Numbered from the stretch's first letter, positions 1,965 through 14,446 are shown. The stretch: 14,446 nucleotides of DNA from a virus (IMGVR_UViG_3300013942_000056:1-14446); one strand, 5' to 3'. The notes: generated by a model not told the origin, from the letters alone. Numbers and translations: made by a program.

Positions 1965-1965
1965 T

Positions 1966-3150: not shown

Positions 3151-3175
3151 AGGCCCCATCAAGAGCATGGGGCCT
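3151..3175 (+). terminator. Intrinsic terminator hairpin after the small ORF
   Basis: AGGCCCCAT (3151-3159), loop CAAGAGC, ATGGGGCCT (3167-3175), then CTTTAT on the plus strand. Confidence 0.6.
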
Positions 3176-3192
3176 CTTTATCGTACTATTGC

Positions 3193-3819
3193 TTATTTTT
3201 TACGGACTGAGTTGTTCACTGCTCTGGCAATCTTCTCCCGCAATTGCTGCGTTCCGTGGTACTGAACCGCAATATCTCTCAACTCGTTCACCAGTTCTCG
3301 AATCTGGTGATCTTTAAGCTCATTATTTGGGTGATTGGTAACAACTCTGGTTAATTCACCCTTGTCTTTTGCTCTTACGTATGCAGCTCTTGTGCATTCG
3401 ACCCATGTATTACCGCCTACATTAACTTCGTAGATTAGGCTGGACTTATCTGTCAATTCGGAACAAATACGGGCCGTGGTCTGGCAACTAGAGCATTCGC
3501 AGTTATCGCGGAAACCGTGATCTACCGGTCGAGAAAGAGGTTTAACTTTTTCATCCAACTTCATCACAGCATCGTGATAAGCGTTCCAGCCGTCATCTTT
3601 ACCAAGTTGATAAATCTCTGAAGGCTCCATGTAGTCTATATCGCAACCTTCTTCATCCGATCTATCTGGTCGCTTCCCTGGTAATCGCTCATAAAAACAA
3701 TTTCTGTCTCGACGTTCGGCTCTCAGTGCTAACGCAAGAAGTTGCTCAAGCGAGGTATTTGCACCAGCAATAATTTCATTGAGAATATCTTCTGTGAGAT
3801 CTTTCGCTACCGTGCTCAT
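3193..3819 (-). CDS. Hypothetical phage protein (208 aa), last gene of the coupled minus-strand operon
   Basis: ATG start at 3819 forms an ATGA overlap with the stop of the upstream gene; Cys-rich stretch (CECSSC...C); no family recognised. Confidence 0.6.
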   Translation of the reverse strand: MSTVAKDLTEDILNEIIAGANTSLEQLLALALRAERRDRNCFYERLPGKRPDRSDEEGCDIDYMEPSEIYQLGKDDGWNAYHDAVMKLDEKVKPLSRPVDHGFRDNCECSSCQTTARICSELTDKSSLIYEVNVGGNTWVECTRAAYVRAKDKGELTRVVTNHPNNELKDHQIRELVNELRDIAVQYHGTQQLREKIARAVNNSVRKK

Positions 3820-4199
3820 TTATCTCTCTCAGTATGTTGCGATGGCGTAAATTTGACGACATCAAATATTTTGGATGGCATCAACTTTATCCGCGAGCTT
3901 AGTTCGGCTCTTCTCTGTAATGCGGTTAATAATGTTTTCGTTCTGACGCCTTCGTGTATCCTCATCCCTGGCACAAGAACTACATCGCAGGGGAGATGCT
4001 CAGGTGACAAATCATTTTGGGCATCGCTAATCAGTCGTGTAATCTCTCTTTCAAGCCGACCGCCTAGCTCTGTTTTAGTGCAATGTTCTGACCAATCGCC
4101 AGCCTCAAGCAGCGCGAGAATGCTTAAAATATCGTCCAATAGATCAGTGGTATTATCGACTTCCTTCTGAAACTCACCGGCTACTGATTTATGCATCAT
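3816..4199 (-). CDS. Hypothetical phage protein (127 aa)
   Basis: ORF with 4-nt overlaps to both neighbours (translational coupling). Confidence 0.55.
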   Translation of the reverse strand: MMHKSVAGEFQKEVDNTTDLLDDILSILALLEAGDWSEHCTKTELGGRLEREITRLISDAQNDLSPEHLPCDVVLVPGMRIHEGVRTKTLLTALQRRAELSSRIKLMPSKIFDVVKFTPSQHTERDK

Positions 4200-4849
4200 T
4201 CGTCATCCTCATCCGAGTCATCCTCATCACAGGATGAGAGTAGTGGGTTAGTCATTCGCCCTACTTGAGTGGCGTAGCCACGCCGACAGAGATTGCGCAG
4301 CACACTGTATATTTCGAACATCTCGGTTCGTTCATCGCCAACATCAAGCTCAGATGCTATAGCGTGGCATTCAGTCGCGAGAGCCGATATTTTCTGAAAT
4401 AACTCTGCATTATTCACTGTTCGACTCCTGCGGCGTTCTGGTAGTGGCATCCAGTGTGTGACATTGCTAATCAGACCATATTCATTAGTTTGAGGATGGT
4501 TGCCGTTATCGTCTCCGTATTTAAGACTCTCCATAAAGCCATAATGCCTATCACCATTAACGCTCACAAAGCCGTAATAAGCAGGTATAACGCCGATCTC
4601 ACACGTAACCAGTAAAGGAAAACTAGTTCTCCAATTTAGCTCGCCAATTACAGGCATTCGCTCACTACAGCTTATCCAACCATCCTTAGATGCGGCTGTA
4701 TTGGCATAGGCCTTACGGTGCTTCTGTAGCTCTGCTGCAATCGCTCTCACGACTTCAACTGGTGCCCTTGCAGCAAACTCAATGTTGGTGATCAGCTCAT
4801 TAAGATATTTCTCGCTTGGGTAGCATTTCTTATTGTTAACGGTGGTCAT
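4196..4849 (-). CDS. Phage protein, DUF551-like (217 aa) with acidic C-terminal tail
   Basis: Contains WISCSERMP ... THWMPLPE, recalled as typical of prophage DUF551 proteins; C-terminus DEDDSDEDDE; stop/start overlap with neighbours. Confidence 0.5.
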   Translation of the reverse strand: MTTVNNKKCYPSEKYLNELITNIEFAARAPVEVVRAIAAELQKHRKAYANTAASKDGWISCSERMPVIGELNWRTSFPLLVTCEIGVIPAYYGFVSVNGDRHYGFMESLKYGDDNGNHPQTNEYGLISNVTHWMPLPERRRSRTVNNAELFQKISALATECHAIASELDVGDERTEMFEIYSVLRNLCRRGYATQVGRMTNPLLSSCDEDDSDEDDE

Positions 4850-5034
4850 TAGGCAGCTCTCTCAACAACAAGCAATTCGTCGTAGTCATAATCAGTTTCG
4901 GAACCATCCGTACCGAACAGAGTCACTTTGTCATTTTCCATCCAAAAAGATTTAACCGCACATTGTTGACCTTTAGATGTTATGAGCACATCACCAGGGA
5001 TTACGTCTTCAGCGCGAACCTCTAGTGTTCTCAT
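4849..5034 (-). CDS. Hypothetical small phage protein (61 aa)
   Basis: ATG start at 5034 in ATGA overlap with upstream stop; its own stop overlaps the next start (TAATG). Confidence 0.45.
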   Translation of the reverse strand: MRTLEVRAEDVIPGDVLITSKGQQCAVKSFWMENDKVTLFGTDGSETDYDYDELLVVERAA

Positions 5035-5561
5035 CGTGCTGCCCCCTCTTTGGTGAAAATGCCTGCTGCAATGCTGTTTATGATGCTGTCAGTGCATGGA
5101 GTAGAAAGCTGGGCATCTCCAGCAATTTTCATGACCTCAACATCCGCATATCGAATACCGAGGTGTATCAGACCGGCTATACCTGACTTAAGTCGAACAT
5201 TTTCCATAAACAGATCTTTTTCCCGCTGTTTAGCGGCTTCCAACTCCATCGACAATTTTTCCAACTGCTCTTTATGCTTCTTGTATTCCTGATACGCGTG
5301 CCAAGACTGACCTTTGCGCACACTATCAGCGATATCAGCAACCTGCTCTGGTGTTAGCGTGGTCAGTGGCTGTGATGGAAAAATCATCACTTGCCCGGCA
5401 TCCCAATCAAAACCCGCCTGAATTGACTGAACCTCAACTGATGGTGTTGAACCGATGCGACCAGGCGAATGAACAACGATCGTTACATCCATATCGCGAC
5501 GATGGCTGTGGTTGTTGGACAAAATACGATTCACCAACTCAGAAAATTTGGATAATTTCAT
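5031..5561 (-). CDS. Hypothetical phage protein (176 aa; start at MKLSKF)
   Basis: The internal ATG at 5561 gives an ATGA overlap with the stop of the upstream gene and has GGAGAGAAAGAGAGA upstream; the longer ORF-track extension to 5690 would overlap the upstream gene by 130 nt. Confidence 0.55.
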
Positions 5562-5881
5562 GCTGATCTCTCTTTCTCTCCCCGGATAATTCTGTTGCAC
5601 ACATCCACACACTCGTCGCAGATGAAAACGGCGTCCCCAGCAATTAACTTTTTGACGGCGTACTGGGATTTGTTGCAGAAGCTGCAACAAAGTGTTCGCC
5701 TGACTGATAAGGATGGAGCGCCAGATGTCAGCCGCTCCATATCGTTCTTGCGACGCAATATCACACGGCTGAACTCAACCAGTTTCTCCGGGGATATCTC
5801 CTCCTCCGTAGCGAGCGTCTCTAGTCGTTCGAGTATGTTGAAGGCTTTTTCTTGGGTAATAGCAGAGTGCGATGTGGTCAT
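5558..5881 (-). CDS. Phage protein with C-terminal ClpX-type C4 zinc-finger domain (107 aa)
   Basis: C-terminal [34 protein letters not shown] closely matches the ClpX N-terminal zinc-binding domain (E. coli ClpX has [34 protein letters not shown] as recalled). Confidence 0.7.
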
Positions 5882-6279
5882 TTTCTTTCACCTTCAATGT
5901 TCGTGGCGCTGGCAAGATTGTCCTTGCGAAGAAGAGCGGCTATGCGCTTACTTCCATCCGAGATAACGCCCTCGTAATACTCACGCTGCTCGTTGAGTTT
6001 TGATTTTGCCAACTCCAGTTGTTTTGTTAGTTCCGCAATACGGCAAACATCGTTGATACGCGTTTCCTCTAATGCGTTGATCTCATCCAGTAGTGCCAGC
6101 ACGGTTTCTGGTCCGGCCAGAAATTTGAAGGCGTTGAGGGCATCAATATCAACACCGCTATCTTTAAGTTCCTGTTCGCATATCAGATCATCATCAACTG
6201 GCAACATTAACAGGCGTTCCATTGCCGGAATTGCACGCTCTGCCGCCTCACGCAGTGCCTGATAGTCAATCTTGCTCAC
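5878..6279 (-). CDS. Ead/Ea22-like coiled-coil phage protein (133 aa), GTG start
   Basis: Start codon is GTG at 6279 with AAGGAG 7 nt upstream and a GTGA overlap with the upstream stop; [17 protein letters not shown]-terminus resembles Ea22-like proteins (from memory). Confidence 0.5.
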
Positions 6280-6776
6280 TGGATGACTCCTTTACGAAGC
6301 TGTTCAGCAATACTTACGCATATCTCTGCGCCTCTAATCAGCCCCGGAACGTTCTTGTTTGGCCCAACTTCACCATCAACAAAATCAATCATCGCGTTAC
6401 GAGCCATATCCACGCCCTGCGCACGTACTTCAGCCAGAAAAGCATCGGTGGCTGGAGTCTCCGTTAATTCGCTAACCCAATTATCTCCGTGTTCCTCGGC
6501 ACACATCGCATCGAATGCTCGCTCAGATTCTTTCAGGGCTGCATTCTCCGCCGCTAATGCGTCTCTCTGCGCTCGCAACTTCTCAATTTCGGCAGCCATG
6601 TAGTAACCAACCATAGCGAAAGTGGCGAAAGGGTAGTCAGAATCATCAGGAGATACGGAGGCCATTAGCAGACCATCGTGCATGTTCTGGCTTCCATCAG
6701 TGATGGATACCGCATAAGAATCGCTGGTTTCCCGTTTATACAATACGACGACCGGGTTCTTGATTTTCTCTCTCAT
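6276..6776 (-). CDS. Ea22-like phage protein (166 aa)
   Basis: ATG at 6776 overlaps the upstream stop (TAATG); contains ETPATDAFLAEVRAQGVDMARNAMIDF, similar to a motif recalled from Ea22-like prophage proteins. Confidence 0.5.
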   Translation of the reverse strand: MREKIKNPVVVLYKRETSDSYAVSITDGSQNMHDGLLMASVSPDDSDYPFATFAMVGYYMAAEIEKLRAQRDALAAENAALKESERAFDAMCAEEHGDNWVSELTETPATDAFLAEVRAQGVDMARNAMIDFVDGEVGPNKNVPGLIRGAEICVSIAEQLRKGVIQ

Positions 6777-7318
6777 TACGATGCCTCTAACTTATCTAAC
6801 TCTTTCAGCCCTTCACGTACCGCGTTCACAATGCGTTCCAGATACTGGTATTTCGGGTTTGGTACCGTTGGCCAGTCGGCATACCACGGATCATCACCAA
6901 AGAGATTCAGCAGTTTGTTACCGACGCCGAAACAACAGCAGCTTTCTTTTACGTCATCGGTGTTTTCCGCCTCGTCCCACATTTCACGAGCCAGTACGGC
7001 GTCGATTTCTCTCTCTCTTCGTAACTTTATGATTTCTGACTTCACGAAAAGCAGATTTGCATCGTTGTCATCGTCGACCGTGCTTCGCAGTTGAGAGTCG
7101 AAATAGCCGATTAGATACTCGTTGCTGACCCGCTTAATGAACGTCTGCACATCATCACCGCCCATAGCAAACCAAGCCGCAGTCCACGCTTTTCCGTAGC
7201 AGATGATGGTGATTCTTCCCTTACCAGGTTCGTAGTTTTCAATCATCACTCGAACCGGATCGAGGCGTTCCAGATCCGTCAGCACAAAGGAAAGAACATC
7301 TATTTTTTCGACCTTCAT
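6776..7318 (-). CDS. Hypothetical phage protein (180 aa; start at MKVEKI)
   Basis: The ORF-track start at 7330 is GTG; the ATG at 7318 forms an ATGA overlap with the stop of the HD-domain gene, so it is the preferred start. Confidence 0.55.
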   Translation of the reverse strand: MKVEKIDVLSFVLTDLERLDPVRVMIENYEPGKGRITIICYGKAWTAAWFAMGGDDVQTFIKRVSNEYLIGYFDSQLRSTVDDDNDANLLFVKSEIIKLRREREIDAVLAREMWDEAENTDDVKESCCCFGVGNKLLNLFGDDPWYADWPTVPNPKYQYLERIVNAVREGLKELDKLEAS

Positions 7319-7956
7319 GCAGCCTCCCACGCGCTCCAGATCAGCGATTTGTGTTTTTCATAACGTTTGATGTGTACCGGTTTCAGAAGCGCAATACCTT
7401 CAGTGACTTTCGCCATTGCGCTTAATAGCAACGGGTGTTCTATACCTATCCTCTCCATGTACTCGACAACATCAGCGTTGGCACCAATCTCTTTGCCGTG
7501 AAAGAGTACGTCCAGCATCAGTTCTTTCTCTGCGAGGTAGACAGCTGAAAACTCGGGATCGCGACTCACGATAGAAGAGGTATTGTCGAGCAGGTCAGCC
7601 AGCTTGATCATGCGCGTCTGCATGTCGAGATTTTGCTCCAGCTCCCGGACATTGATGATGAAACGCTGTATTCGATTGCCGTCTTCTGGCCTTGCAATGT
7701 TGGTCAGAGCCTGAACCATTTCAGCTACGCGCTCACCGAAGTGATCACGAACCATCTCTATGGTTACATGGGTGTCTTCGACCACATCATGCAGAAGCGC
7801 CGCGATTTGCATCTCCACGGTTCCGTCATGCAATGCAACAATCTCTCGGACAGCAACCGGGTGGTTGATGTAGTCTTCGCCGGTATATTTTCTTTTCTGA
7901 CCAACGCCACCATGAGCGCCAGCGGCGAACATATGAGCTTCGGAAATACTAGACAT
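7315..7956 (-). CDS. HD-domain (p)ppGpp hydrolase-like protein, SpoT/RelA hydrolase-type small alarmone hydrolase (213 aa)
   Basis: HPVAVREIV ... AALLHDVVEDT matches the His...HD...ED signature of the RelA/SpoT hydrolase domain; first gene after a terminator; ACGGAG RBS. Confidence 0.7.
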   Translation of the reverse strand: MSSISEAHMFAAGAHGGVGQKRKYTGEDYINHPVAVREIVALHDGTVEMQIAALLHDVVEDTHVTIEMVRDHFGERVAEMVQALTNIARPEDGNRIQRFIINVRELEQNLDMQTRMIKLADLLDNTSSIVSRDPEFSAVYLAEKELMLDVLFHGKEIGANADVVEYMERIGIEHPLLLSAMAKVTEGIALLKPVHIKRYEKHKSLIWSAWEAA

Positions 7957-8024
7957 TCTTAACTCCGTTGTTTTCTAGTTGTGGTTATTTTCACAAATAA
8001 GAAAAGGTAGAAAACAATTTATTT

Positions 8025-8045
8025 AAGGCCACAACTTATGGCCTT
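8025..8045 (-). terminator. Intrinsic terminator separating the MTase unit from the HD-domain operon
   Basis: AAGGCCA (8025-8031), loop CAACTTA, TGGCCTT (8039-8045); minus-strand downstream flank AAATAAATTGTTTTCT; sits 30 nt after the stop of gene 8076..8456. Confidence 0.6.
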
Positions 8046-8075
8046 TATTTATTCATGCCGAAGGATTTGTAGCGT

Positions 8076-8456
8076 CTAATTGCCGGATAAAATGGGGTGA
8101 GGTGCTTGCCAGTAGGCTCCACCGGTCCATGTGAACCCCATGCGAATAAGAGTGTTTATTGCGGCTTTGGTAGACTCCGATTCGACACTGGCTTTTCGAA
8201 ACTCTTGAACCTCTTTCGCCAACTTGTATGTAATTGTGCAGGGGACGATTGCAGCCCAGCCTTTCTCATGACTGTTAATGACCATCTGGATGTGACCATC
8301 CAGAATAGGTTGATTAGGCATGTTATTGAAAATGTCTGCCTGTTTTTGAATGTGAAGAAAAAGCCTTGCCAGCTCCATTTGCTCACTACGAGACAAGGGA
8401 TTATCAAGAGGGCTTTTTGCAAAAGCGGCTATACGCTGTGCGTCAATGCCAAACAT
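8076..8456 (-). CDS. Hypothetical protein (126 aa)
   Basis: ATG at 8456 overlaps the stop of the upstream gene (TGATG), indicating translational coupling; no family recognised. Confidence 0.55.
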   Translation of the reverse strand: MFGIDAQRIAAFAKSPLDNPLSRSEQMELARLFLHIQKQADIFNNMPNQPILDGHIQMVINSHEKGWAAIVPCTITYKLAKEVQEFRKASVESESTKAAINTLIRMGFTWTGGAYWQAPHPILSGN

Positions 8457-9160
8457 CAGCGCACCTCACCATCTTTATGGCTGGAGTTAACTTCCGCCAT
8501 TAAATGTCTGACGTAATCGACAAGAGAGCCACCTGGTGGAATCTGGCATTCCTCAACTAACTGGAAGTAGATATCCGCTGCATTACGTGTATTGCTACCC
8601 GCACATATTCTTTCTTCCCGAAGTGCATGAAGCTCGTTGATCAAACGGTCACACTCTCCGTTACGCTGATCCACAACGGCCTCAAGCTCTGCGACGCGTT
8701 CACCTGGCGTCTTACCTTCTTTGCGTTGGATGGTAACGACGAAATCGCCAATTGCAGGGACGTTGTAATCCAGCTCAAGGTAGTTTTTGGCACCGCTGCG
8801 GACGAACTCACCCGCGAACATGGTGGCGAACATCGCAGAGGCCACTTCGCCGTTGAAAAGTGACTCCAGATCTAACGGAGTCCCGGCATCAAGAGCCTCT
8901 TTTGCTGTATCCATTGCATCCATGAACCGATCAAACTCATTGGCGCGCTTTTCCAGGTTTTTCCATTGCTCGCTCCAACGTTTGGCAACGAAGTCTATGA
9001 ATGTTTTCGCGGATTCATCAAAATCCCCCTCAAACTTAACGATGCCTTTATCAATAATGATCTGGCCTACCGCATCCTCTGCATAACCTTTCAATGTAAA
9101 CTTGAAAGGAAAATCAGAATGGCCTGTGACGTTAAAATGCTCTAACTGGAGGTTGTTCAT
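8456..9160 (-). CDS. Hypothetical protein (234 aa)
   Basis: ATG at 9160 preceded by AGAGAAAAACAC, the same leader type found at two other genes in this block; no family recognised. Confidence 0.55.
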   Translation of the reverse strand: MNNLQLEHFNVTGHSDFPFKFTLKGYAEDAVGQIIIDKGIVKFEGDFDESAKTFIDFVAKRWSEQWKNLEKRANEFDRFMDAMDTAKEALDAGTPLDLESLFNGEVASAMFATMFAGEFVRSGAKNYLELDYNVPAIGDFVVTIQRKEGKTPGERVAELEAVVDQRNGECDRLINELHALREERICAGSNTRNAADIYFQLVEECQIPPGGSLVDYVRHLMAEVNSSHKDGEVR

Positions 9161-9203
9161 GTGTTTTTCTCTTATCGTTTAGTAACTACATTCTTACACA
9201 AAT

Positions 9204-9221
9204 TAGGTAAGTATTTACCTA
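9204..9221 (-). terminator. Weak AT-rich hairpin immediately after the MTase stop (possible attenuator)
   Basis: TAGGTAA (9204-9210), loop GTAT, TTACCTA (9215-9221), abutting the stop codon at 9222-9224. Confidence 0.3.
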
Positions 9222-10907
9222 TCATTTAACGCGTTTGAAAACGTATACGCTGACTGTGATCCCTGTGTCTTCAAACTCGTTGGTAAACGACTTCCCTCTG
9301 GCATAAACGTAATTATCCATCGTCATCCAGTCCAGTATTGGCGCAGTGCCCGGCAATACTGCTACAAGACGCCCGCCGACTTTCAGATGCCCCAGCGCAG
9401 CCAGCGTGTGCTCTCTATGACGACCAAGCGAGTACGGCGGGTTCATAACGATTTTGTCGAACTGATAACCTACGTTGTCCTCAGACCACTTTATGAAGTC
9501 GCAGCAAATCGTGTTCGTATACCCTTTTCCGCGCAGGATATCAGCGAAGAGAGGTGCGATTTCTATGCAGGTAACATCTTCCAGATCGGCGTTGATATAG
9601 GCCAGAAGATCCCCACGTCCGGCTTGAGGCTCCAGCAGCTTCTCACCAGACTTCAATTCAGTGGCTCTGGCAACGTACTCAGCAATCAAGCGTGGGGTAG
9701 GGTAGAACTGGTGTGATTTTGTATCCGGTATTAATCCGGTAGCCACAATCGTATTTAGCGTATGGCCGATCTCATACGGGAACTGCCAGTGCTTTTTCTC
9801 CTGCACGCCGCCAATGAAGCTCAGTGTGCGCTCAAGCTCTTCCACCTGCGACTTCTGGAGAGCTGAATCAGAGAAGTACCATACGCCTTTGTCTTTGCTT
9901 AATCGCCCGTCACGAAGCGCAGTGCGAACCGGCACGGAGATCGTCTTCTGGATTAACCCGAACTGCTTTGGTGCCCGTGTTTTTGGCGCGGTGCGACATG
10001 GCGCGGGGATTGCAGCAGGCATACTGTAAGCCAGCACCTCATTCAACTTCCAGGCCACGTCAGGATGTATTTCAAAGTGAACGTTGCCGTTCTTGAACAT
10101 CTTCACGCGCATTAGATTTCCATCGACGTTCATCCAGTCACCGGTCTGGCAGTCGTTTGCCCGATACGCAGCTGATAGCACCTCAGCAGTGCGGTTGATG
10201 GTAATAAATTCTTTGTGCGCGAAGAAATGAAGCAAGACACGCAGATCGTCGATATAGTCCTCTTTGCGATAGTTCACACTAACGCTGTCCCGCCAGAAAT
10301 CAGAAATGCAGTCAGCGATTATCAGACGTTCGCTGAAACCGTTTGTCTTATTTGTCTTGTGCGCAGGACTCAGCGCCTTAAACAAGCCATACACGCGCTC
10401 AGAGAGATATTTGTGCCTGTCATTCAGCAAATTAAGCATCGTGGGTATGACCGTTTCTGCTTTGAACTCCGGTACACCAACGAACTCTTTAACCTTCATC
10501 TGGTAGCCGGTTCTGTCAGTTTTGATGACTTCCTGTTTGCCCTCTATAAACTGCTCGCGCCACTCATCTCGACGGGAAGCTGGCATGATCAGCAAAACGT
10601 TAGTCATGTCCGTGACCTTCCTCCAGTACTCGGCCCAAATATTCTGTTTCACCCATTCCAGATCGACTTTATCCAACCAACCTCGATTTAAACGCGAGCG
10701 ATCTTCATCTGGTCGATGGTTTAGTCTCAGCAGGCGATTAATCATGTTGTGGCGTTCGTCGCCATAAACGAAGTCGTGTACCTGATACATGAAGGCGATC
10801 TCTTTCTCGCACTCGGCCACAATTTCGTGGATGACGTTCATTTCCTGCCGATAGTCGATAGCAGTGTTTGAGTTGGCATCGTCGATGATGGAAAGGGCTG
10901 TATTCAT
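9222..10907 (-). CDS. 561-aa protein: unknown ~400-aa N-terminal domain fused to a C-terminal gamma-type amino-methyltransferase domain (NPPY; probable N6-adenine DNA MTase)
   Basis: C-terminal region has the SAM-binding motif LEPQAGRGDLL followed about 50 aa later by KIVMNPPY, the order found in gamma-class N6-adenine MTases and HsdM; FYPTP precedes it. NPPY is also used by HemK/PrmC protein-glutamine MTases, so the target is inferred. Confidence 0.7.
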   Translation of the reverse strand: MNTALSIIDDANSNTAIDYRQEMNVIHEIVAECEKEIAFMYQVHDFVYGDERHNMINRLLRLNHRPDEDRSRLNRGWLDKVDLEWVKQNIWAEYWRKVTDMTNVLLIMPASRRDEWREQFIEGKQEVIKTDRTGYQMKVKEFVGVPEFKAETVIPTMLNLLNDRHKYLSERVYGLFKALSPAHKTNKTNGFSERLIIADCISDFWRDSVSVNYRKEDYIDDLRVLLHFFAHKEFITINRTAEVLSAAYRANDCQTGDWMNVDGNLMRVKMFKNGNVHFEIHPDVAWKLNEVLAYSMPAAIPAPCRTAPKTRAPKQFGLIQKTISVPVRTALRDGRLSKDKGVWYFSDSALQKSQVEELERTLSFIGGVQEKKHWQFPYEIGHTLNTIVATGLIPDTKSHQFYPTPRLIAEYVARATELKSGEKLLEPQAGRGDLLAYINADLEDVTCIEIAPLFADILRGKGYTNTICCDFIKWSEDNVGYQFDKIVMNPPYSLGRHREHTLAALGHLKVGGRLVAVLPGTAPILDWMTMDNYVYARGKSFTNEFEDTGITVSVYVFKRVK

Positions 10908-10947
10908 AATTGCACCATTAAGAAGTGATTTGTTTAATGGTGCAATT
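10908..10947 (-). promoter_or_regulatory. Perfect 14-bp inverted repeat over the MTase translation initiation region
   Basis: AATTGCACCATTAA (10908-10921), 12-nt spacer, TTAATGGTGCAATT (10934-10947); the left arm directly abuts the ATG at 10907, so the RBS lies inside the stem or operator. Confidence 0.55.
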
Positions 10948-11010
10948 ATTTCAAAAATGAAAAGGTACTAAATAGAAATAAACAGGCAATCCTTCAAATA
11001 AAGGCATTGG

Positions 11011-11625
11011 CTAATCATACTTGGAGGTATTTATCACCAGAATTTTGTTTGTATAAATCTTCTTAATATCCCATGTGACATTACCGGAATACCATTGACC
11101 GTTATATACTTGGTTTCCAGTTGCACCTGTCATTGTTACATAGACAGGTCTGTCGTAATCGGTTCGTCTATAGTTATATACCCCAACCATAGCAGGCATT
11201 ACCGCACATGGATACCCCATATCTATTGTAAATTGAGGGTCAGAAATAGTGATAAGTTTCGCATCAAGGGGCATCATCTCACCGTGATACACCATTGCGC
11301 CTGCGCTGTTATACATGGCAATGCCATAGCCAGAATGTGATAACACCATATCAGAAAAAGCATAAACTGTTATTGTTCCGGGGCTACCATTTACCTGATG
11401 CAATCTGAGAGCATTGTATCCGTTACTATGCTCATGAATAAACATCATGTTCGCCTTATTACTGCTTTTTATGAAGAAAAAGCATGATTTGTTTGATGGG
11501 ATTGATGTTTGAAAAACAGAACCTTTAGATGTAGACATTGTCCCTTTATTAATCAGATTTTGCGGAGTAAATTCTGGACTCATCCACAAACTTCCATCTG
11601 ATTGAGTAATTGACATCCCGAACAT
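11011..11625 (-). CDS. Hypothetical Tyr/Asn/Gly/Thr-rich protein (204 aa), AT-rich moron
   Basis: The ORF-track start at 11682 is TTG; the ATG at 11625 has GGGGA 6 nt upstream and lies 2 nt after the stop of the upstream 93-aa ORF; the region is visibly AT-rich relative to the flanks. Confidence 0.45.
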   Translation of the reverse strand: MFGMSITQSDGSLWMSPEFTPQNLINKGTMSTSKGSVFQTSIPSNKSCFFFIKSSNKANMMFIHEHSNGYNALRLHQVNGSPGTITVYAFSDMVLSHSGYGIAMYNSAGAMVYHGEMMPLDAKLITISDPQFTIDMGYPCAVMPAMVGVYNYRRTDYDRPVYVTMTGATGNQVYNGQWYSGNVTWDIKKIYTNKILVINTSKYD

Positions 11626-11627
11626 AA

Positions 11628-11909
11628 TTATCCCCAGTATGTGTATATGTAAGAACCAAGCCCCGTATATAAATTTGACCAACTAACCGTATTTCCATTA
11701 ATAGTAACTGTTGGAACAGGTAAATTAATGTAGTTGTCGTTGTTAAGAGGCATCAATGACCACACGGCATGTAGCGATTTACCCGGTGGCGGATTGGAGT
11801 ACGTCTTAGAGCCTGATGACGCAGTAAATCGATCAAGAAAAAAAATAGGAGTAAGGAAGCCAGTAACGTTAATTCCTTTATTGTTGTAAATCCCTGTACC
11901 GTATGCCAT
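11628..11909 (-). CDS. Hypothetical Tyr/Asn/Gly-rich protein (93 aa), AT-rich moron; possibly the N-terminal part of a frameshifted gene
   Basis: ATG at 11909 with AAGGA upstream; composition similar to the following ORF, which is in a different frame. Confidence 0.4.
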   Translation of the reverse strand: MAYGTGIYNNKGINVTGFLTPIFFLDRFTASSGSKTYSNPPPGKSLHAVWSLMPLNNDNYINLPVPTVTINGNTVSWSNLYTGLGSYIYTYWG

Positions 11910-11936
11910 TTTTCATCCTTGTTTTTTATCAACACA

Positions 11937-11960
11937 ATATGGCCGATCATGCGGCCATAT
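11937..11960 (-). terminator. Hairpin (8-bp stem) after the 189-aa gene; possible attenuator or operator
   Basis: ATATGGCC (11937-11944), loop GATCATGC, GGCCATAT (11953-11960), 4 nt after the stop codon at 11965-11967; the downstream flank is not T-rich. Confidence 0.35.
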
Positions 11961-11964
11961 CAGA

Positions 11965-12534
11965 TCAATTAGAGCTTTGAAAGGCTTTGTGTGGCTGTGT
12001 TGCGAGGTTATGTCGATGGCTTAACTCACGCATCATGTCTTCAAGCCGACTCTTTGTGTCGTCGAGTTGGTCGGCCATTGCTCCCAAAAGCTGACGAACG
12101 GCCATCGGATCATCGCTGTTTAGTGATGGCATTTTATAACCCGCCTGAGAAGACATAAGATTGAACGCAGACATCAACATCGTTAGAGAGGATTTAAGCC
12201 CAGCAATTTCACGATCTTTGCTGGCAATAATCGCCTCACTCTTGTTAGTGTCATCAGTTCGTTGAGTCTCGCTCACCATATCCAAAGTCGCCTGCAACTT
12301 ATCAGCGCGCTCTTTTTCAGCAAGATAATGAACACCGAAATGATGTGCTAAAGCTACAACCTGAGTTGGCTCTTCAAAGGTGGACTCAAAATTAAGTGCT
12401 GTAACCACTCTCTCAAATATGGAAACGTCTTCTATTCCTCGAAGAATGGCTAACATTTTGACCAGTTCATTAGCATCCATTTCTTCGAATAAGGCGTTTT
12501 GTTCATCAGCTATCGCTTTGCATTTCTTGCACAT
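11965..12534 (-). CDS. Hypothetical protein (189 aa)
   Basis: ATG at 12534 preceded by AGGAAAAACAC and the AGAAAACAACTTGTTT leader motif; no family recognised. Confidence 0.6.
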   Translation of the reverse strand: MCKKCKAIADEQNALFEEMDANELVKMLAILRGIEDVSIFERVVTALNFESTFEEPTQVVALAHHFGVHYLAEKERADKLQATLDMVSETQRTDDTNKSEAIIASKDREIAGLKSSLTMLMSAFNLMSSQAGYKMPSLNSDDPMAVRQLLGAMADQLDDTKSRLEDMMRELSHRHNLATQPHKAFQSSN

Positions 12535-12552
12535 GTGTTTTTCCTAATGCTT

Positions 12553-12568
12553 AAACAAGTTGTTTTCT
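12553..12568 (-). promoter_or_regulatory. Leader motif AGAAAACAACTTGTTT (palindromic core AAACAA-C-TTGTTT), copy 1
   Basis: Lies 18 nt upstream of the ATG at 12534; near-identical copy at 13281-13297 and partial copies at 7967-7976 and 13808-13822. Confidence 0.45.
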
Positions 12569-12649
12569 TATTGGCTTTATTGTGATGTGGCATAAAAGGG
12601 GAGCAAGCTAAACGTAAAGGTGCAAACTCTCTATTTCGGTCAACGAAAC

Positions 12650-12671
12650 ACAAGGGCCATTTGGCCCTTGT
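12650..12671 (-). terminator. Intrinsic terminator after the TerB / small membrane protein pair
   Basis: ACAAGGGCC (12650-12658), loop ATTT, GGCCCTTGT (12663-12671); 2 nt after the stop at 12674-12676; minus-strand downstream flank GTTTCGTTG. Confidence 0.55.
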
Positions 12672-12673
12672 CA

Positions 12674-12832
12674 TTAACACGTTGCTTTACGGACTAGCGG
12701 ATAAGCGAAGTAGATCGCCAGACCAATGAGGACGCCATCAGAAATGACAGACATCATCTTTCCCGTAAAATCCACCAACACCGCCATCACCAGAAGAGCA
12801 ATGACGGTCACAAGCCGGAATCTCTCAAGCAT
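12674..12832 (-). CDS. 52-aa two-helix membrane peptide translationally coupled to the TerB-like gene
   Basis: Minus-strand translation from the ATG at 12832 gives MLERFRLVTVIALLVMAVLVDFTGKMMSVISDGVLIGLAIYFAYPLVRKATC; the ATG overlaps the TerB-like stop (TAATG); two hydrophobic segments; terminator immediately downstream. Absent from the ORF track (below size cutoff). Confidence 0.5.
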   Translation of the reverse strand: MLERFRLVTVIALLVMAVLVDFTGKMMSVISDGVLIGLAIYFAYPLVRKATC

Positions 12833-13257
12833 TAGAGATAAGCATCCAGTGACAACTGAAGCGCCTGTGCGATCTTTTTCAGGGCCAGCTCTTCTTGTTC
12901 GCCAATACCGTCTTGGTCGGCAATATCAAGGCACAGACACAGTACATCTACTGCATCATTAGTCCCGGCCACATCAGCCAGCTCACGTAAAGCCTGGGCA
13001 TTAGCGCGGCGCGGTGAGGCTTCGTATTGAGCACGGATATTGGCGCTCATTTGGGCAATCTCACCAGCAAACGGAGAAAACGCAGGCAGAGCTGCAATTG
13101 TTTTCTCAAGAATGGAAATTTCCTTTGCGTCGCATGTGCCATCGGCATAGGAGATCATGTACGCGCCCCACACGGTGGCTTCAACCGCATCTCGGTTCTC
13201 CATTTTTTTGACCTCGATAACAGCTTTACGAGTTTTCTTTTTGAATAAACCTAACAT
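12832..13257 (-). CDS. TerB-like (tellurite-resistance TerB family) protein (141 aa)
   Basis: Two repeats of the TerB-like pattern: AYMISYADGTCDAKEISILEKTIAAL and LCLCLDIADQDGIGEQEELALKKIAQAL (compare TerB IAVASDGVSSEEK and IAVAKSDGNFDDDEKSAVREIALAL as recalled); AAGGAAAG RBS; leader motif upstream. Confidence 0.6.
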   Translation of the reverse strand: MLGLFKKKTRKAVIEVKKMENRDAVEATVWGAYMISYADGTCDAKEISILEKTIAALPAFSPFAGEIAQMSANIRAQYEASPRRANAQALRELADVAGTNDAVDVLCLCLDIADQDGIGEQEELALKKIAQALQLSLDAYL

Positions 13258-13280
13258 GTGCTTTCCTTTTGTTATTTGTT

Positions 13281-13297
13281 AAAACAAGTTGTTTTCT
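13281..13297 (-). promoter_or_regulatory. Leader motif AGAAAACAACTTGTTTT, copy 2, extended by further AACAA half-sites
   Basis: Minus strand reads CTAGAAAACAACTTGTTTTAACAAATAACAAAAGGAAAGCACATG: a 7-1-7 palindrome AAAACAA-C-TTGTTTT followed by two more AACAA repeats and the RBS. Confidence 0.45.
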
Positions 13298-13350
13298 AGT
13301 TACATGAATTGCTTACGAAAAGACGGTCAATGCATATGCACTAACAACCG

Positions 13351-13548
13351 TCAGAAATAACCAAGTACCGAACCGACTGGAAAAACAAAAATCCCAACAA
13401 CACGAGCCAAGGTCATACCAGCCTGAAACTGGAGATCACCAGAGCAAACGAGTTTTACAATGTTCGATACCCAACCGGCGGCCATGAGAGCTATGAAAGC
13501 CAGAATCGCCAGCCAAGTTTTTCCAAAGTGATTTGAAAACCAGTTCAT
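13351..13548 (-). CDS. Small membrane protein (65 aa, two hydrophobic segments)
   Basis: ATG at 13548 forms an ATGA overlap with the stop of the upstream signal-peptide gene; hydrophobic stretches WLAILAFIALMAAGWV and VVGIFVFPVGSVLGYF. Confidence 0.55.
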   Translation of the reverse strand: MNWFSNHFGKTWLAILAFIALMAAGWVSNIVKLVCSGDLQFQAGMTLARVVGIFVFPVGSVLGYF

Positions 13549-13796
13549 ACAACCGCCTTAGTCACAGCATGATCCTGAGTAACTGGATGAACTTGAGGTA
13601 TCGCATCCACCGTCATCCCATCCAGAGTGACAGGACGCTCTACTGGAGTGGTGGTAATTGTCGTCGACGGAGGTGTGGTGATGGATGAACCCGGCATCAA
13701 AAGGCTCTGGCCGGCTGGAACGGCTACCGTCGCCAGTGAAACTATAATGAGAACGTAGGCCATTGGTTTCAGCCTCTTTCTTTGAAAATTTTCCAT
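13545..13796 (-). CDS. Small Pro/Thr-rich protein with N-terminal signal-peptide-like or membrane-anchor segment (83 aa)
   Basis: MENFQRKRLKP (basic n-region) + MAYVLIIVSLATVAVPAG (hydrophobic core) + Pro/Thr-rich tail; AGGA 8 nt upstream of ATG; lies entirely inside the alternative frame of ORF 13558..14052. Confidence 0.5.
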   Translation of the reverse strand: MENFQRKRLKPMAYVLIIVSLATVAVPAGQSLLMPGSSITTPPSTTITTTPVERPVTLDGMTVDAIPQVHPVTQDHAVTKAVV

Positions 13797-14052
13797 TCGA
13801 ACTGTCCTTGTTGTTTTTCTCCTTCACTAAAGGCCGTGTACTTTTCGCTTCGCGTGAAGAACCAGAGGTAACAATCGCCCCCACGTTCGCAACAACTGAC
13901 GCTTGCTTATCTAAACGTTCATTCAGCAACCGAACGGCAGTCTCTAGTTCATCAAGACGTGACAGAACACGACCGCTAAATAATTCGGCCAAAATTTGAC
14001 GTAGTGAACGAGGACGTTTAGTTGCAGAAGTGAAATAGGTTTGACGTGCCAT
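13558..14052 (-). CDS. Hypothetical basic protein (start MARQTYF); true 3' end uncertain
   Basis: ATG at 14052 (the ORF-track start at 14100 is GTG inside the poly-C/G junction). First ~75 aa look protein-like (RVLSRLDELETAVRLLNERLDKQ); the remainder is Ser-rich low complexity and overlaps gene 13545..13796 in another frame. Confidence 0.35.
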   Translation of the reverse strand: MARQTYFTSATKRPRSLRQILAELFSGRVLSRLDELETAVRLLNERLDKQASVVANVGAIVTSGSSREAKSTRPLVKEKNNKDSSNGKFSKKEAETNGLRSHYSFTGDGSRSSRPEPFDAGFIHHHTSVDDNYHHSSRASCHSGWDDGGCDTSSSSSYSGSCCD

Positions 14053-14099
14053 GTGGACTCCATCCAGTGTCAGAAAGAGTTGCCCCCCGTGGCATTCCA

Positions 14100-14160
14100 C
14101 ACGCCCCCCCGGCCCCCCCCTCCCCGTTGAGGAGGGCCCAGTGGAGGGGAGCCGCCCCCC
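14100..14160. other. Poly-C/G low-complexity junction (probable chimeric assembly or sequencing artifact)
   Basis: CCCCCCC, CCCCCCCC and CCCCCC runs within 60 bp, coinciding with the end of the fmt homology and a clear rise in GC content to the right. Confidence 0.6.
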
Positions 14161-14446
14161 GGTATTTGGGCAGCAGGGACGAATGAACGTTGATGGAGCC
14201 GTAAGGTGGGGTGTTCAGAATGTCCTCCGGCAGGATGCGGCCATAGGCCGCCACCACGATCAGCTCCGGATGCAGCTCCCGCACCAGGGCCAGGGCCGTG
14301 CCGTCCCGCATTTTCGTGGGCTGATACACGGACAGCCCCTGGGCCAGGGCGTATTCCTTCACCGGTGAAAAGGCCAGCTTATGCCCCCGGTTTTTGGGGC
14401 GGTCCGGCTGGGTGAACACGCCGCAGATCTCGTGCCCGTCCTCCAC
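14120..14446 (-). CDS. fmt: Methionyl-tRNA formyltransferase fragment (residues ~25-135 only), GC-rich, non-enterobacterial codon usage
   Basis: Minus-strand translation [24 protein letters not shown] ... VVAAYGRILPEDIL ... INVHSSLLPKYRGAAPLHWALLNGE aligns with the Fmt N-terminal domain (E. coli [45 protein letters not shown]). Homology stops at the poly-G tract; the N-terminus lies beyond the window end. Confidence 0.75.

What the first reader, a model, noticed from the sequence alone, without database searches (positions are those of the whole stretch)
7965..13822. Recurrent AGAAAACAAC leader motif, palindromic in two copies, in front of independent moron genes
Minus-strand leaders of at least four genes share AGAAAACAAC shortly upstream of the RBS: the HD hydrolase (plus 7967-7976), the 189-aa gene (12553-12568), TerB-like (13281-13297) and the signal-peptide gene (plus 13808-13822, variant GAGAAAAACAACAAGGA). 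In two copies it extends to the palindrome AAAACAA-C-TTGTTTT, and the TerB copy adds two more AACAA half-sites. An inverted copy (AGAAAACAA, plus 8009-8017) lies between the terminator and the HD gene promoter region. Three genes also share the start context AGGAAA(A)ACAC-ATG. This suggests a common operator or translational control element coordinating otherwise unrelated morons.
Basis: seen in the sequence. Interest (0 to 1): 0.5.

Follow-up and report, generated by a model that had tools for sequence, protein, structure and literature searches.

The report
Dispersed palindromic operator of SSU5-like phage-plasmids
The repeated AGAAAACAAC string is one half of a 13-19 bp palindrome that sits on the start sites of many silent (lytic-cycle) promoters across a whole family of plasmid-like phages of enterobacteria, most likely as the docking site of a shared, still unidentified repressor.

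Summary
The window is an SSU5-like phage-plasmid, 97-98% identical to E. coli phages CMS-2020a and Cyrano, with a foreign GC-rich end. AGAAAACAAC is the better-conserved half of the dyad AGAAAACAA-N-TTGTTTTCT (core AAACAA-N-TTGTTT).

The exact core occurs 2 times in the window, 9 in Cyrano, 11 in SSU5 and 11 in Klebsiella pJN2-26. Shuffles give 0-0.07. All 9 Cyrano copies are intergenic, and Y. pestis pMT1 keeps six sites.

Sites lie on or just after predicted sigma-70 start sites. Some promoters carry a second copy over the -35 region, exactly 51 bp upstream, as at the HD-hydrolase promoter here. Half-sites are 95-97% conserved between orthologous promoters, while the centre base and the flanks vary. 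The RNA hairpin is weak and half-site changes are not compensated.

In published lysogen RNA-seq the genes behind the motif sit at background, so they are not morons.

Best reading: a DNA operator for one trans-acting repressor controlling at least 15 transcription units. The binder is not identified.

The fourth "variant" copy is not conserved and is not a member. I found no description of the motif in the searchable literature. It is a new member of a known kind, of moderate interest.

The parts
13279..13297 (-). Operator O2 of the TciA/TerB-like gene. Minus-sense sequence AGAAAACAACTTGTTTTAA; exact core AAACAA-N-TTGTTT at 13282-13294. It ends 25 nt upstream of the ATG at 13257.
   Evidence: Conserved in Cyrano and in pJN2-26 although the upstream flank is unrelated in pJN2-26.
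13302..13330 (-). Predicted sigma-70-like promoter of the TciA gene: -35 TTGACC at 13325-13330, 17-nt spacer, weak -10 TCATGT at 13302-13307. This places the operator centre near +8.
   Evidence: score 5.3; the Cyrano orthologue TTGACC-N18-TATGAA scores 8.0. Prediction only; the strict consensus scan found nothing here.
12550..12568 (-). Operator O2 of the 189-aa gene. Minus-sense sequence AGAAAACAACTTGTTTAAG; exact core at 12553-12565. It ends 18 nt upstream of the ATG at 12534.
   Evidence: family D2. Conserved in Cyrano, SSU5 (1 mismatch) and pJN2-26 (1 mismatch).
12579..12606 (-). Predicted promoter of the 189-aa gene: -35 TTGCTC at 12601-12606, -10 CACAAT at 12579-12584, then 10 nt before AGAAAACAA. 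Operator centre near +14.
   Evidence: The same -10/operator spacing is seen in about 15 cassette promoters in relatives.
12650..12671 (-). Terminator-like hairpin ending the TciA/TciB unit, upstream of the 189-aa gene promoter.
7958..7976 (-). O2 position of the HD-hydrolase promoter. Only the promoter-proximal half-site AGAAAACAAC (7967-7976) is present; the distal half is replaced by the Shine-Dalgarno sequence GGAG. ATG at 7956.
   Evidence: The same half-site plus GGAG is found in SSU5; pJN2-26 has GTAAACAATGGAG.
8009..8027 (.). O1, the upstream operator of the HD promoter. Minus-sense sequence CTTAAATAAATTGTTTTCT (core with 1 mismatch). Its inner half overlaps the predicted -35 (TTTTCT, 8009-8014). 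The centre is 51 bp from the O2 centre.
   Evidence: I1, I2, I5. The same O1-51 bp-O2 layout is found in Cyrano 93114/93165, SSU5 88319/88370 and 85602, and pJN2-26 21773, 24759, 28539.
7987..7992 (-). Predicted -10 (GAAAAT) of the HD promoter, 10 nt upstream of AGAAAACAAC. Homology with Cyrano, which lacks the HD gene, starts at 7982, between this -10 and O2.
8025..8045 (.). GC-rich hairpin (terminator-like) directly abutting O1. Hairpin plus O1 plus promoter recurs as a unit in relatives.
10926..10940 (-). Remnant of the motif at the DUF4942 methylase promoter: a single AAACAA half-site. SSU5 and pJN2-26 carry a perfect operator at this position.
13806..13822 (-). NOT a member of the family.
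   Evidence: Not palindromic, and not conserved in SSU5 or pJN2-26.

Best explanation
The motif is a dyad-symmetric DNA operator, AGAAAACAA-N-TTGTTTTCT with core AAACAA-N-TTGTTT. It belongs to the SSU5 family of phage-plasmids.

Copies sit on or just downstream of the start sites of sigma-70-type promoters (class O2; centre mostly around +12 to +16, sometimes +2 to +8). At some promoters a second copy lies over the -35 region, exactly 51 bp upstream (class O1).

One trans-acting, probably dimeric, element-encoded repressor would bind these sites. It would keep at least 15 rightward transcription units shut during plasmid-like lysogeny. These units include replication, partition, nucleotide metabolism, the terminase operon and many small accessory genes. 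In this window they are the TciA/TerB-like gene, the 189-aa gene and the HD hydrolase.

Shown here:
- the motif, its enrichment, its intergenic placement, its conservation across elements from four host genera, and the 51-bp pairing;
- the silence of the downstream genes in a lysogen (from the literature).

Inferred:
- that it acts on DNA, that it represses, and where the transcription start sites lie.

Unknown:
- the protein that binds it.
For: - **Enrichment.** Exact core copies number 9, 11 and 11 in Cyrano, SSU5 and pJN2-26, against 0.00-0.07 in dinucleotide shuffles. In Cyrano intergenic DNA alone the count is 9 against 0.005. All 9 exact copies, and 15 of 18 at <=1 mismatch, are intergenic, although intergenic DNA is 13% of the genome. 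Two of the three 'coding' sites sit at the 5' ends of CYRAN_105 and CYRAN_110, where downstream ATGs with Shine-Dalgarno sequences suggest miscalled starts (my reading).
- **Footprint.** Between orthologous promoters the half-sites are 97% and 95% identical, the centre base 38%, and the flanks 51-70%. The TciA promoter of pJN2-26 shares only the palindrome with the window.
- **Non-paralogous promoters** (parA, dnaB, cobT, nrdB, tciA, terS) share nothing but the dyad.
- **Position.** Predicted sigma-70 promoters next to the sites score a median of 6.8 against a background of 4.3. The operator centre clusters at +12 to +16. At dnaB a conserved TTGAT(C/T)-N16-TAnnAT ends 1 nt before AGAAAACAA, which puts the start site inside the dyad.
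- **O1 copies.** These lie behind terminators and upstream of the -35, 51 bp from O2, at 7 or more promoters in 4 genomes.
- **RNA structure is unlikely.** The hairpin is worth -0.7 to -1.7 kcal/mol. Of 62 one-sided changes in the six core pairs only 9 still pair, and there is one paired double change. There is no Rfam match.
- **Regulon behaviour.** Genes behind the motif have a median of about 7.5 normalised reads in LF82 lysogens, against a background of 9.8. None of the leftward, lysogen-expressed genes carries the motif.
Against: - No binding protein is identified.
- None of the candidate regulator genes has the motif in its own promoter.
- Transcription start sites are predicted only. 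The strict consensus scan found no canonical promoter upstream of the three window genes.
- The core-identity figures are inflated, because sites were selected by match.
- The 51-bp spacing may partly reflect duplication of a whole cassette.
- SSU5, reported as virulent and lacking the Xre-type repressor region, keeps as many perfect sites as its temperate relatives. So either the binder is a different, universal protein, or the sites have another role.
- parA carries the motif yet is expressed at about 5 times background in the lysogen.
- The inward-facing half-sites are better conserved than the outer ones. This could reflect promoter or leader constraints rather than protein contacts.
Confidence: 0.55

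Rival explanations
1. The motif is an RNA-level leader element. The transcribed AGAAAACAA-N-UUGUUU (an A-rich tract followed by a U-rich tract, or a weak hairpin) is bound by the family's conserved FljA-like protein, or by host Hfq. Binding blocks translation or destabilises the mRNAs.
For: - Most O2 copies lie between the predicted start site and the Shine-Dalgarno sequence.
- Every SSU5-type element examined encodes an FljA-family protein: PF03614 at 1e-80, found in 831 plasmids including pMT1.
- FljA is known to repress fliC by acting on its mRNA leader (Bonifield & Hughes 2003 and Yamamoto & Kutsukake 2006, as cited in PMC2652032).
- The protein models as two tandem Hfq/Sm domains: pLDDT 84, Foldseek matches to Hfq at TM 0.7-0.83 and rmsd 1.1-1.5 A. 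Hfq binds A-rich and U-rich RNA (established knowledge).
- The protein is expressed in the lysogen at about twice background.
Against: - Exact dyad symmetry, including mirrored C and G, is not expected for single-strand recognition.
- The hairpin is weak and is not kept by compensation.
- O1 copies lie behind terminators and upstream of the -35.
- At dnaB and nrdB, and possibly parA, the best promoter puts the start site inside the dyad.
- The distance to the ATG varies from 12 to 66 nt.
- The target genes are silent at the RNA level, not only at the protein level.
- The fliC leader has no such motif. Residues invariant between true FljA and the phage-plasmid proteins suggest the latter may simply target host fliC.
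Confidence: 0.15
2. There is no dedicated factor. The motif is part of a repeated terminator-promoter cassette that spread by duplication and recombination together with small gene cassettes, in the manner of T4 promoter-early stem-loop (PeSL) elements. Its recurrence would reflect common descent and a role as a recombination joint.
For: - In the accessory region the whole 60-70 bp unit recurs: hairpin, CTTAAACAAnTTGTTTTCT, aCCTTTT, GATAATAAC, ACCAACA, AGAAAACAA.
- Homology blocks between relatives break at these units. Cyrano homology starts at window 7982, between the -10 and O2. pJN2-26 homology ends at 8029 and SSU5 homology at 8055. Both resume and end at 10965.
Against: - Promoters that are not paralogous share only the dyad, not the cassette.
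- Within aligned orthologues the two half-sites are conserved, while the centre base and the flanks drift.
- Intergenic DNA is the expected place for mosaic joints anyway.
- This role is compatible with, and not exclusive of, an operator function.
Confidence: 0.12
3. The motif is the binding site of a conserved enterobacterial host transcription factor or nucleoid protein that the element has recruited.
For: The motif is unchanged in elements from Escherichia, Salmonella, Klebsiella and Yersinia. It also persists in SSU5, which lacks the Xre-type repressor region.
Against: I could not match it to any host regulator consensus that I know; this rests on memory and is not a test. The elements share many conserved proteins of unknown function that could equally be the binder. 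The host chromosome was not scanned.
Confidence: 0.08

Closest known systems
Phage P1 C1 repressor with its many operators scattered over the plasmid prophage (established knowledge; Lobocka et al. 2004)
   Same: Both are plasmid prophages. In both, one short site is repeated at many separate promoters, including a dnaB-like helicase gene, methylase genes, and tciA-type and accessory genes. These units are silent in the lysogen.
   Different: The P1 operator is an asymmetric 17-mer (ATTGCTCTAATAAATTT); this site is a 6-N-6 dyad. No C1 homologue was looked for or seen in the annotations, and the binder here is unknown.
Lambdoid/434-type dyad operators bound by HTH dimers (434 operator ACAA-N6-TTGT; established knowledge)
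   Same: Dyad symmetry, an ACAA/TTGT half-site, an unconstrained centre, overlap with the core promoter, and pairs of sites.
   Different: The spacing is 1 bp instead of 6. The sites are dispersed over about 100 kb rather than clustered in one immunity region. An Xre-type HTH protein (CYRAN_45) exists in relatives, but its own promoter carries a different palindrome (motif 2).
KorA/KorB global regulons of IncP plasmids (KorB site TTTAGC-S-GCTAAA; established knowledge)
   Same: A 6-N-6 palindrome is repeated about 10-12 times on a plasmid, at or near promoters. It coordinates replication, partition and other modules.
   Different: The sequence is different. The two ParB-N proteins of SSU5-like elements are silent in the lysogen (5.0 and 9.5 reads). 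No evidence links them to the motif.
T4-type PeSL (promoter-early stem-loop) mobile regulatory cassettes (Arbiol et al. 2010; from memory)
   Same: Repeated stem-loop plus promoter units flank small variable ORFs in a hyperplastic region. Mosaic joints fall at the units.
   Different: Here the unit carries a dyad operator. The dyad also occurs at unrelated core-gene promoters.
FljA-fliC leader repression
   Same: An FljA-family protein is conserved in the element family, and the motif lies in or near 5' leaders.
   Different: The fliC leader lacks the motif. The motif has DNA-like dyad symmetry, and some copies lie outside transcripts.

Membership tests
Dyad-symmetric repressor operator overlapping a promoter | Inverted-repeat half-sites with fixed spacing and an unconstrained centre | tested here: met
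   AAACAA-N-TTGTTT. Half-sites are 95-97% identical between orthologues and the centre 38%. There are 34 exact copies across four genomes.
Dyad-symmetric repressor operator overlapping a promoter | The site overlaps the -35, the -10 or the start site of the regulated promoter | tested here: inconclusive
   Predicted promoters place centres at +2 to +16, and O1 near -37. No start site has been mapped, and the strict scan found no canonical promoter.
Dyad-symmetric repressor operator overlapping a promoter | Downstream genes are off when the repressor is present (lysogen) | tested here: met
   LF82(Cyrano) RNA-seq: genes behind the motif have a median of about 7.5 against a background of 9.8; parA is the exception at 49.8.
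Dyad-symmetric repressor operator overlapping a promoter | An identified cognate DNA-binding protein | tested here: not met
   No candidate carries the motif in its own promoter. CYRAN_45 (HTH_19, sub-threshold), CYRAN_123 and CYRAN_37 (weak winged-helix hints) and CYRAN_43 (no domain) remain guesses.
P1 C1-type dispersed immunity operators | Many single operators scattered over a plasmid prophage | tested here: met
   15-20 sites spread over the roughly 100-kb genomes.
P1 C1-type dispersed immunity operators | Asymmetric 17-bp consensus ATTGCTCTAATAAATTT and a C1 homologue | tested here: not met
   The site is a symmetric 13-19-mer with a different sequence. A C1 homologue was not searched for.
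Moron (lysogen-expressed accessory gene with its own promoter and terminator) | Own promoter and terminator | tested here: met
   The 189-aa gene is flanked by a terminator hairpin (12650-12671) and by a hairpin at 11935-11958; promoter-like elements are present.
Moron (lysogen-expressed accessory gene with its own promoter and terminator) | Expressed from the repressed prophage | tested here: not met
   Cyrano homologues read TciA 7.0, TciB 5.0, the 189-aa homologue 7.1 and the methylase 7.8, against a cut-off of 49. The HD gene is absent from Cyrano and so was not measured.
FljA-type mRNA-leader operator | An FljA-family protein is encoded by the element | tested here: met
   PF03614 at 1e-80 in Cyrano, and homologues in 831 plasmids. 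The gene is not inside this window.
FljA-type mRNA-leader operator | The target resembles the known FljA target (the fliC leader) | tested here: not met
   The E. coli fliC leader contains no AAACAA-N-TTGTTT.
Structured cis-regulatory RNA (Rfam families) | Match to a curated covariance model, or a stable and covarying structure | tested here: not met
   No Rfam match in the window. The hairpin is worth -0.7 to -1.7 kcal/mol and shows no compensation.
T4-type PeSL mobile regulatory cassette | Repeated stem-loop plus early promoter flanking variable small ORFs, used as recombination joints | tested here: inconclusive
   The cassette recurs and several homology breakpoints fall in it. No statistical test against other intergenic points was made.

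The most novel reading that the evidence does not exclude
The conserved FljA-like protein of SSU5-type phage-plasmids models here as two fused Hfq/Sm domains. On this reading it is the factor that reads the motif. It would bind the A-rich/U-rich leader RNA, or A-tract DNA as Hfq can. That would make it an Hfq-derived master switch holding a whole plasmid-prophage lytic programme silent, in elements that include S. Typhi pHCM2-type plasmids and Y. pestis pMT1.
Probability: 0.12. Interest if true: 0.75.

Novelty: new member of a known kind. Interest (0 to 1): 0.45.

Why it matters
SSU5-type phage-plasmids are among the commonest phage-plasmids of clinical Enterobacteriaceae; the family includes the pHCM2 lineage, Klebsiella pKpn-type elements and Y. 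pestis pMT1. They carry resistance and virulence cargo, yet in the literature I could search I found no description of their lysis-lysogeny control.

A single 13-bp dyad marks at least 15 silent promoters. This gives three things:
- a concrete handle for finding the master regulator, using pull-down, DAP-seq or reporter assays;
- a sequence signature for annotating promoters and regulon membership in hundreds of elements;
- a correction to the habit of calling the small, separately promoted genes of these elements 'morons'.

Tried and rejected
- **Strict sigma-70 consensus scan of 7900-14100.** It found no promoter upstream of the three genes.
- **Scan of IMG/VR for AGAAAACAANTTGTTT.** It showed only that contigs of 90-112 kb carry several copies.
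- **Literature.** No held paper contains any of the 13-mers. The phage-plasmid surveys examined do not mention operators or promoters. Two papers were not held.
- **Autoregulatory copies.** I looked for the motif in the promoters of CYRAN_114, 45, 37, 119, 98, 43 and 63. There were none.
- **RNA hairpin or riboregulator.** Weak energy, no compensation, no Rfam match.
- **Sigma-28 promoter, LexA box, IHF, CRP, PhoP, RcsAB and KdgR consensus sequences.** I compared these by eye from memory and none fits. This is not a formal test.
- **Domain searches of lysogen-expressed proteins of unknown function (CYRAN_43, 117, 81, 40, 102, 109).** No DNA-binding domain was found.
- **PDB sequence search with the FljA-like protein.** No hit. 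The fold search was informative.
Full report
**What the window is.**
Positions 1-14083 belong to an SSU5-like phage-plasmid. Megablast of 7000-14100 gives 98.0% identity to Escherichia phage CMS-2020a and 97.5% to phage Cyrano (the pLF82 plasmid prophage). The match to Salmonella phage SSU5 is 88.5% over part of the query, and Klebsiella phage-plasmids match more weakly.

Genes in the finding's range run on the minus strand. They match Cyrano CYRAN_83-92:
- a 164-aa ORF;
- a 65-aa ORF;
- TciA/TerB-like (PF05099) and TciB (DUF3927);
- a 189-aa protein, a 93-aa protein and a 201-aa protein;
- a DUF4942 methylase;
- Ead/Ea22-like and Eaa-like proteins.

An HD_4 hydrolase follows. Cyrano lacks it, but SSU5 and pJN2-26 have it. 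Positions 14084-14446 are unrelated GC-rich DNA that encodes an Fmt-like fragment.

**Checking the observation.**
AGAAAACAAC occurs exactly three times, all on the minus strand: 7967-7976, 12559-12568 and 13288-13297. One-mismatch copies lie at 8009-8018 (+), 13097-13106 and 6018-6027. That is 6 hits against 1.45 expected, and 0 of 200 shuffles reached 6.

The copies at 12553-12565 and 13282-13294 are exact AAACAA-N-TTGTTT palindromes. The 'inverted copy' at 8009-8027 is itself a 1-mismatch palindrome. The repeat finder groups the three leader copies as family D2. It pairs 8009-8027 with the other two as inverted repeats I2 and I5. The string at 13806-13822 is present but is a different thing (see 'The fourth copy' below).

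**The motif is genome-wide in this phage family.**
I assembled the complete genomes of four elements:
- Cyrano;
- SSU5;
- Klebsiella phage pJN2-26;
- Y. pestis pMT1.

Counts of the core AAACAANTTGTTT:

| Genome | Exact copies | Exact in shuffles | Copies at <=1 mismatch | <=1 mismatch in shuffles |
|---|---|---|---|---|
| Cyrano | 9 | 0.05 | 18 | 0.80 |
| SSU5 | 11 | 0.07 | 20 | 0.25 |
| pJN2-26 | 11 | 0.00 | 17 | 0.60 |

Within Cyrano's 14.3 kb of intergenic DNA alone, the count is 9 exact against 0.005 expected. All 9 exact copies and 15 of the 18 at <=1 mismatch are intergenic. Two of the three 'coding' copies sit at the extreme 5' ends of CYRAN_105 and CYRAN_110. Downstream ATGs with Shine-Dalgarno sequences there suggest that these starts were miscalled. 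pMT1, a decayed relative, keeps six sites at <=1 mismatch.

The genes behind the motif include:
- the terminase operon (two sites 25 bp apart, followed by a terminator-like hairpin);
- parA;
- the dnaB-like helicase;
- cobT;
- nrdB;
- tciA;
- the 189-aa gene's homologue;
- in SSU5 and pJN2-26, the DUF4942 methylase;
- a dozen small genes in the variable region.

**Anatomy.**
Aligning 53 sites shows two classes.

- **O2 (30 sites).** The layout is a weak -35 (TTTTAC, TTGGAC or TTTTCT), GCCTT, 11 nt, GATAAT, 10 nt, AGAAAACAA-N-TTGTTT, then 12-66 nt to the ATG. At core genes the -10 lies closer. At dnaB, TTGAT(C/T)-N16-TAnnAT ends 1 nt before AGAAAACAA in SSU5 and pJN2-26 (a similar -35 is present in Cyrano).
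- **O1 (7 sites).** The layout is a GC hairpin, CTTAAACAA-N-TTGTTTTCT, aCCTTTTcTTAT.TG.GAAAATAAC. The dyad lies over the -35 region, and its centre is exactly 51 bp upstream of the O2 centre.

The window's HD promoter is of the O1 type. O1 lies at 8009-8027. The -10 GAAAAT lies at 7987-7992. An O2 half-site lies at 7967-7976, and its distal half is replaced by the Shine-Dalgarno sequence GGAG. SSU5 has the same layout, and pJN2-26 a close one.

In both classes the half-site facing the core promoter, with its 3-nt extension (AGA or TCT), is the better conserved.

A weight-matrix search finds better sigma-70-like promoters next to the sites than at random positions (median 6.8 against 4.3). It puts the dyad centre mostly at +12 to +16, and at +4 to +8 for some. 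These are predictions. The strict consensus scan of the region found none.

**Conservation.**
At orthologous promoters of Cyrano, SSU5 and pJN2-26, the pairwise identities are:
- left half-site 0.97 and right half-site 0.95;
- AGA extension 0.89;
- centre base 0.38;
- flanks 0.51-0.70.

Site selection inflates the half-site values. The free centre and the drifting flanks are informative all the same. The clearest single case is the TciA promoter. pJN2-26 shares no upstream sequence with the window, yet it keeps CGAAAACAATTTGTTTAAG at the same place.

**DNA or RNA?**
As RNA, the window leaders fold with only -0.7 to -1.7 kcal/mol. In 71 distinct sites, the six core pairs show 62 one-sided changes, of which 9 still pair. 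They show 3 two-sided changes, of which 1 pairs. There is no Rfam match.

Three further points argue for DNA:
- O1 copies lie behind good terminators and upstream of the -35 (Cyrano 97190, pJN2-26 28539).
- At dnaB and nrdB the best promoters put the start site inside the dyad.
- The distance to the start codon varies from 12 to 66 nt.

These points favour recognition of duplex DNA by a symmetric protein. They do not exclude a protein that reads the A-rich and U-rich halves as single-stranded RNA.

**Expression.**
The LF82 study gives RNA-seq counts for every Cyrano gene in lysogens. The background median is 9.8 and the paper's moron cut-off is 49 (PMC9928086).

| Gene behind the motif | Reads |
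|---|---|
| terS | 7.1 |
| helicase | 21.1 |
| cobT | 7.8 |
| CYRAN_58 | 5.7 |
| nrdB | 12.9 |
| TciA | 7.0 |
| CYRAN_87 (the 189-aa homologue) | 7.1 |
| CYRAN_101 | 7.5 |
| CYRAN_105 | 12.8 |
| CYRAN_106 | 12.2 |
| CYRAN_108 | 5.7 |
| CYRAN_110 | 6.7 |
| CYRAN_111 | 25.5 |
| parA (the exception) | 49.8 |

The lysogen-expressed genes are mostly leftward: toxin-antitoxins, repA, CYRAN_43, CYRAN_45, CYRAN_117 and others. None of the promoter regions I inspected for these carries the motif. So the genes in the finding are not morons by the expression criterion. They belong to a silent, co-marked set.

**Who binds?**
This remains unresolved. The candidates are as follows.

- **CYRAN_45.** It gives a sub-threshold HTH_19 hit and matches PHROG 'transcriptional regulator'. 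It reads 96 in the lysogen. It is absent from SSU5, which has been called virulent (PMC5427195 abstract). However, its own promoter in Cyrano, pJN2-26 and pMT1 carries a different palindrome (motif 2, described under 'Other things seen').
- **CYRAN_43.** It reads 7084 in the lysogen and has no recognisable domain.
- **CYRAN_123 and CYRAN_37.** They give only weak, sub-threshold winged-helix hints and are silent in the lysogen.
- **The FljA-family protein CYRAN_114.** It matches PF03614 at 1e-80, is found in 831 plasmids including pMT1, and reads about twice background.

I modelled the FljA-family protein from a 28-sequence alignment. The mean pLDDT is 84. The model shows two tandem helix-plus-five-strand domains. 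Each superposes on Hfq at TM 0.7-0.83 and rmsd 1.1-1.5 A. This fits FljA's reported action on the fliC mRNA leader, and it keeps an RNA-level rival alive.

Two observations count against that rival. The E. coli fliC leader has no such motif. And the residues invariant between true FljA and the phage-plasmid proteins suggest that the latter may simply target host fliC.

**The fourth copy.**
The 83-aa signal-peptide ORF (13545-13796) lies out of frame inside the annotated 164-aa ORF (13558-14052). Both frames are open in SSU5 and pJN2-26.

In the overlap, substitutions are fewest at the 164-aa frame's third codon positions and most at its first positions. The counts at positions 1, 2 and 3 are 29/27/20, 37/26/25 and 34/28/21 in the three pairwise comparisons. 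In the non-overlapping part they are 35/23/50, 39/29/55 and 29/15/46.

The sequence ahead of it, however, is CCCAGGCACACAAGGACAG in SSU5 and AATCAAACGCGCATGGAGAG in pJN2-26. The 'variant motif' is therefore not conserved. It resembles the general ACAAGGA pre-Shine-Dalgarno context, which also appears at 11915-11925.

**Cassette and mosaic aspect.**
In the variable region the hairpin-O1-promoter-O2 unit recurs as a block. Homology breakpoints fall in or next to such units:
- Cyrano homology starts at window 7982;
- pJN2-26 homology ends at 8029, and SSU5 homology at 8055;
- both stop again at 10965.

This resembles T4 PeSL cassettes. It may explain how separately promoted small genes are shuffled. 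It was not tested statistically, and it does not explain the dyad at unrelated core promoters.

**Literature.**
No held paper contains the 13-mers. The phage-plasmid surveys I opened do not discuss promoters or operators. The motif therefore appears undescribed within what I could search.

**Verdict.**
The finding is real, and it points to a family-wide regulatory dyad. I assign probabilities as follows:
- DNA operator of an unidentified trans-acting repressor: 0.55;
- RNA-level control by the FljA/Hfq-like protein: 0.15;
- repeated cassette with no dedicated factor: 0.12;
- host factor: 0.08.

It is a new member of a known kind, with interest 0.45.

**Other things seen.**
- **Motif 2.** A second dispersed palindrome, TAGGTAAGTACTTACCTA, lies at window 9204-9221.
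- **Methylase hairpin.** A -19.5 kcal/mol hairpin sequesters the methylase start (10906-10949).
- **LexA box.** One lies ahead of the UmuD-like gene (2408-2427).
- **Direct repeat.** A repeat lies in the 800-bp gene-free stretch 2392-3192.
- **Chimeric end.** The right end of the window is foreign DNA.

Noticed in passing
window 14084-14446: GC-rich DNA unrelated to SSU5-like elements, joined through a poly-C/G stretch. Its minus strand translates to an Fmt (methionyl-tRNA formyltransferase)-like N-terminus. The contig looks chimeric.
   Followed up: partly
window 9204-9221 (also Cyrano 22452, 42607, 45267, 77440, 79655, 84624): A second dispersed palindrome, TAGGTAAGTA(C/T)TTACCTA (GTAA-N4-TTAC). 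It has 7, 9 and 15 copies in Cyrano, SSU5 and pJN2-26; in Cyrano 6 of 7 are intergenic, and by their sequence context most copies in the other two look intergenic too. Arms reach up to 14 nt. One copy sits in the promoter of the Xre-type regulator CYRAN_45 in Cyrano, pJN2-26 and pMT1. It could be that regulator's operator, or a conserved AT-rich hairpin or terminator.
   Followed up: partly
window 10906-10921 / 10934-10949 (minus strand): A perfect 16-bp hairpin (-19.5 kcal/mol, z = -5.6) sequesters the Shine-Dalgarno sequence and the AU of the start codon of the DUF4942 methylase. SSU5 and pJN2-26 have a perfect motif-1 operator at this position instead. The E. coli lineage appears to have swapped a promoter operator for a translational lock.
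   Followed up: partly
window 13545-13796 within 13558-14052 (minus strand): An 83-aa signal-peptide ORF lies out of frame inside the annotated 164-aa ORF, and both frames are open in three genomes. The codon-position substitution pattern in the overlap indicates that the 83-aa frame is the one under selection. This is either an overlapping gene pair or an over-extended annotation.
   Followed up: partly
window 2408-2427: A canonical LexA box (TACTGTATATACATACAGTA; CTGT-N8-ACAG) lies 17 nt upstream of the UmuD-like S24 peptidase gene (2002-2391). A second LexA-like box precedes the integrase in Cyrano (41040-41065). The UmuD-like gene reads 148 in the lysogen, 15 times background.
   Followed up: no
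window 2392-3192: An 800-bp stretch without a convincing gene contains the direct repeat TAAGTATCTGGCGACT (2791-2806 and 2964-2979), repeated AAATCGTGCC units and two terminator-like hairpins. No Rfam match. It may hold small RNAs or iteron-like repeats.
   Followed up: no
Cyrano L004:20780-21301 (not in the window): The FljA-family 'transcriptional regulator' conserved in SSU5-type phage-plasmids (831 plasmids) models as two tandem Hfq/Sm domains. I did not find a solved structure or a description of this fold for the family.
   Followed up: yes
Cyrano 57-120, SSU5 56-120, pJN2-26 38628-38680 (not in the window): The terminase (late) operon is preceded by one or two motif-1 sites (two, 25 bp apart, in Cyrano and SSU5; one found in pJN2-26) and then by a GC-rich hairpin followed by a T-rich stretch (TGTGTGTTTT), ahead of terS. 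This layout suggests late-gene control by antitermination.
   Followed up: no
window 9161-9175, 12535-12549, 13258-13271 and 12 of 123 Cyrano genes: A shared translation-initiation context, A/C-rich leader plus AAAGGAAAAACAC-ATG, occurs at the first genes of many early units, with or without motif 1.
   Followed up: partly
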